Origin: Escherichia phage Fostie
Reading direction: 5' to 3' (one strand)
Length of the DNA: 38,253 nt
Sequence record: PP925832.1
In this document: piece after piece, positions 23,148 through 23,725 of the stretch
How the letters are laid out: every line of letters starts with the position of its first letter
Position numbering within the stretch: the stretch's first letter is position 1
Made by a program: the position numbers and the translations under genes
Notes under the pieces: model-generated
The model's database searches: none
Told to the model about the DNA's origin: nothing
The model's input: only the letters and a program-made list of their open reading frames with translations

Positions 23148-23304
23148 TTATTTACTGGATTTAATCAGGGGCCAGAGCAGCGCAATCACTCCGGCCACCA
23201 GCACGCCATCAGCGAGGATGGACATCATTTTGCTGGTGAAATCGATAGCAACCACCAGGAACAACAAAATCCCGGCGGCTGCCCAGCGCAGTTTTCCGAT
23301 CACA
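23148..23304 (-). CDS. Small two-TM membrane peptide coupled to the TerB gene
   Basis: 51 codons from GTG at 23304 overlapping the TerB stop (GTGA); two hydrophobic helices; below the ORF-track length cutoff. Confidence 0.35.
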
Positions 23305-23725
23305 GGTACTGATCCAGTGGAAGCTGCAGCGCCTGAGCGATTTTCTTCAGCTGTTTCTCTTCTTCTTCACCGATACCGTCGTTGTCAGCTACATCGAGAC
23401 ACAGGCAAAGAACATCAACAGCGTCATTTGTACCCGCAACATCAGCCAGTTCGCGCAGCGCCTGAGCGTTAGCAGAACGCGGTGAAGCTTCGTAACGAGC
23501 ACGAATATTGCTACTCATCTGTGCGATCTCACCGGCGAACGGCGCGAAGGCAGGCAGTGCCGAAATCGTTTTTTCCAGCGTGGCGATTTCTTTCGCGTCG
23601 CAGGTACCGTCGGCATACGCAATGGAGTAAGCGCCCCATACAGTCGCCTCAACCGCATCGCGGTTTTCCATTTTCTTAACTTCAGTAACGGCTTTACGTG
23701 CTTTCTTTTTGAAGATACCGAACAT
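23300..23725 (-). CDS. TerB-domain (tellurite-resistance TerB family) protein
   Basis: 141 aa; paired ADG/DG helices (SIAYADGTCDAKEIATLEK and LDVADNDGIGEEEEKQLKKIA) align by eye with E. coli TerB. Confidence 0.7.
   Translation of the reverse strand: MFGIFKKKARKAVTEVKKMENRDAVEATVWGAYSIAYADGTCDAKEIATLEKTISALPAFAPFAGEIAQMSSNIRARYEASPRSANAQALRELADVAGTNDAVDVLCLCLDVADNDGIGEEEEKQLKKIAQALQLPLDQYL

What the first reader, a model, noticed from the sequence alone, without database searches (positions are those of the whole stretch)
23148..23725. TerB-domain protein translationally coupled to a 51-aa two-TM peptide in the Q/tR' to holin interval
The position just after the late promoter and terminator, where Stx phages carry toxin genes, is occupied by a TerB-family protein with paired ADG/DG helices. 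Its stop overlaps (GTGA) the GTG start of an unannotated 51-codon ORF encoding two hydrophobic helices, which ends about 110 bp before the holin. TerB domains are associated with membrane stress, which suggests a two-component membrane-directed module expressed at the onset of late transcription. It could be a lysis-timing regulator, an abortive-infection or exclusion module, or a host-fitness moron.
Basis: partly seen in the sequence, partly recalled or inferred. Interest (0 to 1): 0.55.

Follow-up and report, generated by a model that had tools for sequence, protein, structure and literature searches.

The report
Phage TerB plus small membrane peptide
The two genes are real and belong to the phage P1 tciA/tciB family, which is already named but has no tested function; here they are late lytic genes sitting behind a conserved folded RNA leader that other phage accessory genes also carry.

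Summary
On the minus strand, a 141-aa TerB-family gene (23300-23725) ends in GTGA. That overlap starts a 51-codon gene (23148-23303) encoding two hydrophobic helices. The pair lies after Q, a pR'-like promoter and the tR' terminator, 108 nt before the holin.

It is not new. It is the phage P1 tciA/tciB pair (Pfam TerB + DUF3927; PHROG 632 + 1470). Near-identical phages and RefSeq E. coli genomes annotate both genes. No paper tests the function.

What I add:
- Both genes are under strong purifying selection.
- The stop/start overlap is kept in 76 of 80 metagenomic viral loci, and tight coupling is kept in all seven reference phages.
- The pair occurs behind three Q families and before at least four holin families, and also in virulent N4-like phages. 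No promoter of its own was found. This favours a lytic-cycle membrane role over lysogen fitness.

An unexpected extra is a 128-nt leader upstream of tciA. It is far more conserved than neighbouring synonymous sites and shows compensatory base changes. Its long helix and pseudoknot bury the ribosome-binding site. A diverged second copy lies at 21135-21252. Related leaders precede unrelated accessory genes in phi80, HK639 and others. No Rfam family matches it.

The mechanism remains inferred.

The parts
23999..24781 (-). Q-type late antiterminator gene (260 aa)
   Evidence: Pfam Antiterm PF03589 at 1.8e-53 and PHROG 127 at 2e-101.
23928..23957 (-). pR'-like late promoter (TTGACT, 18-nt spacer, TATGCT)
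   Evidence: Consensus scan, 9 of 12 matches. Function is inferred from its position between Q and the terminator.
23866..23894 (-). tR'-like intrinsic terminator (AAACCCGCCTCAGCGCGGGTTT followed by a T run)
   Evidence: Terminator scan: 8-pair stem, 5 G-C pairs, T run.
23726..23853 (-). Structured 128-nt leader of tciA (type 1). Hairpin H0 pairs 23852-23848 with 23841-23837. Pseudoknot helix H1 pairs 23829-23822 with 23780-23773. The anti-SD CCUUU (23821-23817) pairs with the SD AAAGG (23739-23735). Long-range helix H2 pairs 23813-23805 with 23752-23744. Hairpin H3 pairs 23797-23792 with 23786-23781.
   Evidence: The leader differs by a median 2% between loci, against 43% at four-fold degenerate sites of tciA. 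97.5% of cells are paired, 17 of 25 pairs show compensatory changes, and 0 of 500 shuffles reach this. H1 was tested separately: 93% paired, 4 of 8 pairs compensated. Covariance model R1 scores the window copy at 172 bits. No Rfam family matches.
23300..23725 (-). tciA: TerB-family protein, 141 aa. It has a basic N-terminal tail (net +5 in residues 1-20), a six-helix acidic domain, and two D-G-x5-E motifs.
23148..23303 (-). tciB: DUF3927 peptide, 51 aa, GTG start inside the GTGA overlap, two transmembrane segments. L14, D21, F22, T23, D32, G33, L35 and P45 are invariant.
   Evidence: Pfam and PHROG hits. Alignment of 12 homologues down to 37% identity. dN/dS is 0.095 and hydropathy shows two segments. 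Basic residues sit at both ends.
23040..23147 (-). Spacer between tciB and the holin, with three hairpins. The last one pairs UUCCCCUC with the holin ribosome-binding site GAGGGGG. There is also a weak terminator-like hairpin, GCCGCAUAGCGGC.
   Evidence: Fold of -41.6 kcal/mol, z = -3.99. Terminator-like site found by scan. The spacer diverges 2-16% among loci that carry the same holin.
22653..23039 (-). Holin (Phage_holin_8, 128 aa), the first gene of the lysis cassette. It is followed by a 3-TM holin (22385-22666) and a GH19 endolysin (21756-22385).
   Evidence: Pfam and PHROG hits.
21135..21252 (-). Second, diverged copy of the leader family (type 2). It follows the spanin region and a terminator-like hairpin plus T run read by eye (about 21246-21270). 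It ends directly at the ATG (21134) of a 260-aa ORF of unknown family (20355-21134).
   Evidence: Covariance model R1: 39.7 bits, E about 1e-10. Sequence read. The fold buries AAAGG in the base of a long hairpin, z = -2.4. The ORF has no PHROG match.

Best explanation
This is a tciA/tciB module of the phage P1 family: two translationally coupled proteins that most likely act together at the inner membrane during the lytic cycle.

Shown:
- TciA is a full-length TerB-fold protein.
- TciB is a conserved 51-aa peptide with two hydrophobic segments and basic ends.
- The two genes almost always overlap by 4 nt or 1 nt.
- No promoter was found between tR' and tciA.
- The tciA ribosome-binding site lies inside a conserved RNA structure.

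Inferred, expression. The module is made only when Q lets RNA polymerase read through tR'. Translation of tciA is gated by the folded leader. tciB has no evident ribosome-binding site, so it is translated by re-initiation after tciA.

Inferred, arrangement. TciB inserts as a helical hairpin with both ends in the cytoplasm. Its two invariant aspartates (D21, D32) would then sit towards the periplasmic side. TciA docks at the cytoplasmic face through its basic N-terminal tail and its acidic domain, which probably binds a cation. This would be a minimal counterpart of the TerB-TerC membrane unit of ter operons.

Inferred, role. My preferred role is to condition the inner membrane of the infected cell against outside membrane attack, such as injection by a superinfecting phage or pore-forming colicins. 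That would also stop the holin clock from firing early. This mirrors the phage-inhibition and colicin-resistance phenotypes of ter operons.
For: Identity:
- Pfam and PHROG hits.
- 34% and 45% identity to P1 TciA and TciB.
- Profile hit to KP-TerB 2JXU at 2.4e-10.

Real, constrained genes: dN/dS is 0.03 for tciA and 0.095 for tciB.

Coupling:
- Tight coupling in all seven reference phages: the stop and start overlap in six, and abut with no gap in FSL SP-076.
- 76 of 80 IMG/VR loci keep the overlap; 78 of 80 have tciA upstream.

Late, Q-dependent context:
- Q genes of three Pfam families lie upstream in 51 of 72 loci.
- Holins of at least four families lie downstream.
- No promoter lies after tR'.

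Lytic role:
- The pair is present in virulent N4-like Schitoviridae.
- It is not essential for P1 plaque formation (PMC10695390).

Membrane placement: hydropathy and charge distribution.

Literature:
- A TerC-TerB complex has been proposed as the central membrane unit (PMC12054061).
- TerB proteins are described as switching between cytoplasm and membrane, and they sit beside pore formers in defence systems (bioRxiv 10.1101/2025.09.30.679545).
- Ter components in phages have been proposed to act against superinfection (PMC7824862).

Leader gating.
Against: - No experiment addresses this family, and no paper mentions a function for DUF3927.
- Physical contact between TciA and TciB is not shown. 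The AlphaFold2 run on a natural fusion gave low confidence for the peptide part and no contact read-out.
- TciA of two types only 43% identical to each other pair with nearly the same TciB. This argues against a tightly co-evolved interface.
- Phage 434 carries DUF3927 without a TerB gene.
- Late expression is an odd time for exclusion of incoming phages.
- In N4-like phages and in P1 the pair is far from the lysis genes.
- Metal binding by the acidic motifs is assumed from family knowledge and was not tested.
Confidence: 0.4

Rival explanations
1. Prophage-encoded defence by abortive infection or exclusion. Low read-through of tR' gives lysogens some TciA and TciB. TciA senses membrane disturbance by an incoming phage, and TciB then forms a pore or blocks DNA entry. 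This would resemble TerB-containing defence systems.
For: TerB domains occur in the validated defence systems Bunzi, Shango and Dionysus, the last next to a pore-forming protein. The ter operon gives phage inhibition. TciB is a small membrane peptide with charged residues in its membrane segments.
Against: PADLOC models give no match at E up to 0.1. No promoter of its own was found and a strong terminator lies upstream. The pair is also kept by virulent phages that never form lysogens.
Confidence: 0.15
2. Lysis-timing regulator. TciB, which has the topology of a short class II holin, or the TciA-TciB pair, delays or sharpens holin triggering, like an antiholin.
For: In lambdoid phages the pair lies directly upstream of holins of at least four unrelated families. 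It is co-transcribed with them. TciB has two membrane segments with basic ends.
Against: TciB matches no holin or antiholin family. In P1 and N4-like phages the pair is not next to lysis genes. A regulator that works with four unrelated holin families would need a generic, membrane-level mechanism, which merges this rival with the main explanation.
Confidence: 0.15
3. Counter-defence decoy. The phage TerB copy, held at the membrane by TciB, competes with host TerB in TerC-TerB complexes or in TerB-based immune sensors, and so disables Ter-type phage inhibition.
For: The pair is found in virulent and temperate phages of Enterobacterales. The papers read here place ter operons in Klebsiella pneumoniae and Yersinia pestis; that ter operons are common across the order rests on my own knowledge. 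A Klebsiella terC mutant was reported to lose resistance to phage infection. TciA aligns with KP-TerB over its whole length.
Against: Late expression is too late to counter an entry block. There is no evidence of binding to TerC. The pair also occurs in many hosts where I did not check for a ter operon.
Confidence: 0.1
4. Host-fitness cargo giving tellurite, metal or oxidative-stress tolerance to the lysogen, as the database name 'tellurite resistance protein' implies.
For: Family name and homology to TerB. ter genes are induced by Zn, Mn and Te.
Against: The genes next to the pair are Q, holins and endolysin, not terC, terD or terZ. Other work cited names TerC-TerD as the minimal tellurite-resistance unit. 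No promoter is active in lysogens by the scan. The pair is present in virulent phages.
Confidence: 0.07

Closest known systems
Phage P1 tciA-tciB-tciC operon (also in P7, D6 and Cyrano)
   Same: TerB-family gene followed by an overlapping DUF3927 gene. Identity is 34% for TciA and 45% for TciB. The stop/start overlap is kept. The genes are not essential for lytic growth in P1.
   Different: The window has no tciC, the 35-aa single-helix peptide. The P1 operon lies beside tRNA genes and ban, not in a Q-dependent late operon. The leader RNA is absent from the P1-type loci.
TerB-TerC unit of the terZABCDE tellurite, phage and colicin resistance operon
   Same: TciA aligns with solved KP-TerB across residues 14-135 and has the TerB-like fold. 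In both cases a TerB protein is encoded next to a membrane protein. The TerC-TerB complex has been proposed as the core unit.
   Different: The partner is a 51-aa two-helix peptide, not the large multi-pass TerC (my own knowledge of TerC). None of the neighbouring genes I scanned is a TerC, TerD, TerZ or TerE homologue. Homology between TciB and TerC was not tested.
TerB-containing anti-phage systems (Bunzi BnzA, Shango SngA, Dionysus DinB with pore-former DinC)
   Same: A TerB-domain protein is encoded with membrane proteins. 'Membrane surveillance' has been proposed for these systems.
   Different: No PADLOC model matches either protein. The module is carried by phages in their lytic-cycle operons and lacks the other components of those systems.
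Promoter-early stem-loop cassettes (PeSLs) of T4-type phages
   Same: This comparison is for the leader. Both are short conserved regulatory sequences that flank unrelated non-essential genes and could serve as recombination handles for module shuffling. Here the order terminator, leader, gene recurs before tciA, HNH endonucleases, a glycosyltransferase, a KilA-N protein and unknown genes.
   Different: The lambdoid leader has no promoter by the scan. It runs up to the ribosome-binding site and shows compensatory base changes that point to an RNA-level function.
Leaders that bury the ribosome-binding site (lambda S sdi structure, RNase III-processed lambda N leader, fourU RNA thermometers); comparison from my own knowledge
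   Same: A U-rich stretch (CCUUU) pairs with the ribosome-binding site (AAAGG) at the base of a stable helix just before the start codon.
   Different: There is no sequence or Rfam relationship. The type 1 leader adds a pseudoknot. The trigger that opens it, if any, is unknown.

Membership tests
TerB family (Pfam PF05099) | Profile match above the curated cut-off | tested here: met
   29.1 bits against a cut-off of 24.4, E = 1.4e-6, though only residues 12-57 align. PHROG 632 matches full length at 3.4e-64.
TerB family (Pfam PF05099) | Full-length homology to an experimentally solved TerB | tested here: met
   A profile of 18 TciA homologues hits 2JXU (KP-TerB) at E = 2.4e-10, residues 14-135 against 20-144 of 153. 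The single sequence alone did not find it.
TerB family (Pfam PF05099) | All-helical TerB-like fold | tested here: met
TerB family (Pfam PF05099) | Two conserved acidic D-G...E motifs on paired helices | tested here: met
   D39, G40, E46 and G117 are invariant and E122 is nearly invariant across homologues of 33-99% identity. They align with the SDG...E motifs of KP-TerB. Metal binding itself cannot be tested here.
ter operon (terZABCDE) | Encoded together with terC, terD and the other ter genes | tested here: not met
   The neighbours are Q, two holins, an endolysin and spanin-like ORFs. I did not scan every ORF of the window.
ter operon (terZABCDE) | Confers tellurite, colicin and phage resistance | not testable with these tools
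   This is a phenotype. No published test exists for tciA-type genes.
DUF3927 / TciB (Pfam PF13064, PHROG 1470) | Profile match above the cut-off over the full length | tested here: met
   53.9 bits against a cut-off of 25. PHROG 1470 covers residues 1-51 of 54 at 3.5e-23.
DUF3927 / TciB (Pfam PF13064, PHROG 1470) | About 50 aa with two hydrophobic segments and the conserved DFT...DG...P core | tested here: met
   L14, D21, F22, T23, D32, G33, L35 and P45 are invariant in 12 sequences. Hydropathy peaks at residues 8-22 and 29-43.
DUF3927 / TciB (Pfam PF13064, PHROG 1470) | Directly downstream of, and overlapping, a TerB-family gene | tested here: met
   GTGA overlap in the window. 78 of 80 IMG/VR loci have tciA upstream, 76 of them with a 4-nt or 1-nt overlap. 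Phage 434 is an exception with no TerB gene.
P1 tciABC operon | Third gene tciC (35-aa single-helix peptide) | tested here: not met
   No similar ORF in any frame of the 108-nt spacer.
Known anti-phage defence systems (PADLOC-DB 2.0) | Match to a defence-system protein model | tested here: not met
   No family at E up to 0.1 for either protein.
Holin or antiholin | Match to a holin family; ability to permeabilise or delay lysis | tested here: not met
   TciB matches only DUF3927/TciB, not any holin family in Pfam or PHROGs. Its activity cannot be tested here.
Moron in the strict sense (gene with its own promoter and terminator); definition from my own knowledge | Own sigma-70 promoter upstream of the gene | tested here: not met
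   The scan finds promoter-like sites only at pR' and inside Q, none between tR' and tciA. A consensus scan cannot exclude weak or unusual promoters.
Any Rfam RNA family (for the leader) | Covariance-model match | tested here: not met
   No family reaches its gathering score in the whole window. No match at E up to 1 overlaps 23726-23853, apart from hits centred on the terminator.

The most novel reading that the evidence does not exclude
The tciA leader and its diverged relatives may form an undescribed family of structured RNA leaders. Each sits between a terminator and an accessory gene in lambdoid late operons. Each buries the ribosome-binding site under a covarying long-range helix, with a pseudoknot in the tciA type. 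If so, they would set the translation of phage cargo genes, including the TerB/TciB membrane module, and would double as recombination handles that move such genes between phages. TciAB itself would be a minimal TerB-plus-membrane-partner unit, which would make the long-unexplained TerB function testable in a two-gene system.
Probability: 0.25. Interest if true: 0.65.

Novelty: already known. Interest (0 to 1): 0.38.

Why it matters
The gene pair itself is ordinary. It is a named, widely annotated phage family, and its presence in the Q-to-holin slot would not surprise a phage biologist.

It matters in two modest ways.

First, the biochemical role of TerB has stayed open since the ter operon was described. 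A two-gene, translationally coupled TerB-plus-peptide unit carried by easily handled coliphages is the simplest system in which to test it.

Second, the conserved folded leader appears to be shared by many unrelated accessory genes in lambdoid phages. If it controls translation or mediates cassette exchange, it would explain how cargo genes are inserted into a strongly transcribed late operon and how their expression is kept in check there.

Tried and rejected
- tRNA scan, because Stx phages carry tRNAs in this slot: none found.
- Rfam, on the region at permissive E-value and on the whole window at gathering score: nothing relevant. The only weak, sub-threshold hits (Phe and Trp leaders, isrK) centre on the pR'-tR' stretch.
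- NCBIfam and PADLOC for both proteins: no hits.
- Single-sequence search of PDB sequences: only insignificant EF-hand (centrin) matches, E 0.07 or worse. I treat the resemblance of ADGT..D..E to EF-hand loops as unproven.
- Testing TciA-TciB contact by folding a natural 196-aa fusion (P0202, one contig, probably a frameshift). MAFFT first misplaced the TciB sequences onto the TciA N-terminus. The final model gave pLDDT 47-72 for the peptide and no contact output. Inconclusive.
- RNAalifold on the MAFFT alignment of leaders gave a poor consensus because two sequence types were misaligned by one or two columns. I replaced it with a hand-derived structure, a covariance model and pair counts.
- Automatic picking of the 'next ORF' after tciB often returned a spurious out-of-frame ORF that overlaps the holin. 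The holin counts are therefore lower bounds.
- The P1 genome paper (PMC523184) is not held.
- I looked for tciC in the window: absent.
- I looked for a promoter inside the leader: none by the scan or by eye in the type 2 copy.
- The genome-contig scan returned only 17 loci, so it gives a narrow view of taxonomic range.

Full report
**What is there.** All relevant genes are on the minus strand. ORF 23300-23725 (141 aa) is followed by ORF 23148-23303 (51 aa, GTG start). The TGA of the first and the GTG of the second share the bases GTGA at 23303-23300. Upstream lie a Q antiterminator gene (23999-24781; Pfam Antiterm, 1.8e-53), a promoter-like site TTGACT-18-TATGCT (23957-23928) and a strong intrinsic terminator (23894-23873). 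Downstream, after 108 nt, come a Phage_holin_8 holin (22653-23039), a 3-TM holin, a GH19 endolysin and spanin-like ORFs.

**Identity of the two proteins.**
- The 141-aa protein passes the Pfam TerB threshold (29.1 against 24.4 bits) and matches PHROG 632 'tellurite resistance' over its full length (3e-64).
- A profile built from 18 homologues hits the solved Klebsiella TerB (2JXU) at E = 2.4e-10 over residues 14-135.
- The 51-aa protein matches Pfam DUF3927 (1.8e-14) and PHROG 1470, 'TciB-like'.
- tblastn finds it in 43 phage records, including P1, P7 and D6. There it is tciB, directly after tciA, the P1 TerB homologue.

The pair is therefore a tciA/tciB module. The window is 99% identical here to Escherichia phage LMessi, whose record annotates 'tellurite resistance protein' and 'TciB-like protein'. 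RefSeq annotates both genes in E. coli genomes such as UMNK88. The small ORF is thus not an unannotated novelty.

**Are both genes real and coupled?**
- Against up to 69 distinct tciB sequences, median dN/dS is 0.095, with dS reaching 1.7. For tciA it is 0.03.
- TciB has two hydrophobic segments (residues 8-22 and 29-43) and basic residues at both ends. L14, D21, F22, T23, D32, G33, L35 and P45 are invariant in homologues down to 37% identity.
- In seven phage lineages the junction is always tight: CTGTGA (GTG overlap), TAATG (1-nt overlap) or TAAATG with no gap in FSL SP-076.
- In 80 IMG/VR loci retrieved with a TciB profile, 78 have tciA immediately upstream. Of these, 76 show the 4-nt or 1-nt overlap.
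- I see no clear ribosome-binding site before the GTG. I therefore infer that tciB is translated by re-initiation after tciA.

**Context and what it says about function.**
- In the IMG/VR loci the ORF upstream of tciA is a Q protein of one of three Pfam families in 51 of 72 cases. I count DUF1133 (10 loci) as a Q-type family from my own recollection; without it the count is 41 of 72 and two families.
- The downstream genes include holins of at least four families.
- The same arrangement occurs in Actinobacillus phage vB_Apl-pPE4 and Escherichia phage Evi.
- The pair also sits in the early region of virulent N4-like phages such as FSL SP-076. The authors of that genome paper noted that those phages lack a lysogeny module.
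- In P1-type phage-plasmids it lies beside tRNA genes and ban.
- P1 CRISPRi scored tciA, tciB and tciC as non-essential (PMC10695390).
- No promoter-like site lies between tR' and tciA.

Together these points favour a role in the lytic cycle over lysogen fitness.

The PADLOC defence models do not match. I found no paper that tests the function of tciA-type genes or DUF3927.

The most useful published context has three parts:
- The proposal that TerC and TerB form a central inner-membrane unit (PMC12054061).
- The presence of TerB domains in the defence systems Bunzi, Shango and Dionysus, with the idea that TerB proteins switch between cytoplasm and membrane.
- The suggestion that phage-borne Ter components act against superinfection (PMC7824862).

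**Proposed mechanism.**
- TciB would be a membrane hairpin with both ends in the cytoplasm.
- TciA has a basic N-terminal tail (net +5 in residues 1-20, against -5 for the whole protein) and two conserved acidic D-G-x5-E motifs. It would work at the cytoplasmic face as a minimal TerB-plus-membrane-partner unit.
- I favour protection of the infected cell's membrane state against outside attack, and hence against premature holin firing. This rests on analogy only.

Evidence that weakens a tight complex:
- TciA of two types (about 43% identical) combines with TciB that is 90-94% identical.
- Phage 434 has DUF3927 without TerB.
- A natural fusion protein gave an uninformative model.

**An unexpected leader RNA.** The 128 nt between tR' and the tciA start (23726-23853) are almost invariant. 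The median difference from the window is 2% across 60 loci, while four-fold degenerate sites of the adjoining tciA differ by 43%. The leader is identical or nearly so even where TciA is only 43% identical.

The leader contains:
- a hairpin (H0);
- a long-range helix, GGGUGAGCC with GGCUCACCC (H2);
- an extension of H2 in which CCUUU pairs with the ribosome-binding site AAAGG;
- an inner hairpin (H3);
- a helix, CCACAGAG with CUCUGUGG (H1), that crosses H2 and so forms a pseudoknot.

On an alignment made with a covariance model, 97.5% of cells pair. Compensatory changes occur in 17 of 25 pairs, and no shuffle of 500 reaches this. Slid controls pair at 29-50%. That alignment was fitted to the model, which favours the structure. 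H1 was not in the model, yet it pairs in 93% of cells with 4 of 8 pairs compensated.

An exact-pattern scan of IMG/VR returned 118 loci:
- 109 are followed by tciA.
- 2 are true leaders followed by other genes (L157, L177).
- 4 are chance matches.
- 3 are cut by contig ends.

**A family of such leaders.** The model finds a second, diverged copy in the window at 21129-21252 (39.7 bits, E about 1e-10). It lies after the spanins and a terminator, and ends at the ATG of a 260-aa ORF with no PHROG match.

Similar second copies occur in many loci and in phage vB_Apl-pPE4. They precede HNH endonucleases, a glycosyltransferase, a KilA-N protein and several unknown proteins.

blastn finds this type in 29 GenBank phages, including phi80, HK639, mEp213, mEp043, mEp390 and mEp237:
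- In HK639 it sits between a terminator after the major tail gene and an unknown gene that is itself followed by a terminator.
- In phi80 it precedes the last gene before cos.

One variant (L053) keeps H2 with a largely different sequence. No Rfam family matches.

I read this as a family of leaders attached to accessory genes in lambdoid late operons. The likely function is control of translation, or a processing site. A second possibility is a recombination handle like the PeSL cassettes of T4-type phages (PMC2839356). These functions are inferred. I cannot exclude that the element has been described in a paper outside the searchable library.

**Verdict.** The finding is accurate but describes a known, annotated gene family of untested function. 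Its interest lies in being a very small system for studying TerB, and in the structured leader that accompanies it.

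Noticed in passing
window 23726-23853 (-): The 128-nt leader of tciA is far more conserved than synonymous sites of tciA. It has covarying helices, a pseudoknot and a buried ribosome-binding site. No Rfam family matches it.
   Followed up: yes
window 21135-21252 (-); also L005 4354-4498, L224 2501-2615 (HK639), L225 2001-2108 (phi80): A second, diverged copy of the same leader architecture lies after the lysis cassette. 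Relatives precede unrelated accessory genes (HNH endonuclease, glycosyltransferase, KilA-N protein, unknowns) in many lambdoid phages, always in the order terminator, leader, gene.
   Followed up: partly
window 23040-23147 (-): The spacer before the holin folds strongly (z = -4.0). Its last hairpin pairs UUCCCCUC with the holin ribosome-binding site GAGGGGG, which suggests translational control of the holin. A weak terminator-like hairpin lies at 23087-23099.
   Followed up: partly
window 23867-23962 (-): The short pR'-to-tR' stretch gives weak, sub-threshold Rfam hits (isrK at 17 bits, Phe and Trp leaders). It is probably the usual short late-promoter transcript. Such transcripts act as small RNAs in some prophages.
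   Followed up: no
L020, L021, L025, L032, L058 (IMG/VR loci): TciA of a different type (43% identical to the window's) is joined to TciB that is 90-94% identical and to an identical leader. This implies recombination at both ends of tciA.
   Followed up: partly
P0202, P0023, P0115; L059 5856-6156: Natural variants exist. One is a 196-aa TciA-TciB fusion (one contig, possibly a frameshift). Others are deletions that remove most of tciA but keep the leader and tciB.
   Followed up: partly
L003 2441-2599 (phage 434): A DUF3927 gene occurs without TerB. It lies 85 nt after a 247-aa putative membrane protein with no Pfam match, in the Q-to-esterase interval.
   Followed up: partly
L157 4747-5900: The same leader precedes a 281-aa secreted-looking protein (PHROG 6856). 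It is followed 4 nt later by an apparently unrelated (not compared) 51-aa peptide that also looks like two membrane helices. This parallels the tciA-tciB layout.
   Followed up: no
window 20355-21134 (-): A 260-aa ORF behind the second leader has no PHROG family. A homologue in L063 is 349 aa.
   Followed up: no
L004 1080-3545 (FSL SP-076): In N4-like phages the TerB-TciB pair lies next to a MoxR-like ATPase and a COG3864 protein. This may or may not be functionally linked.
   Followed up: no
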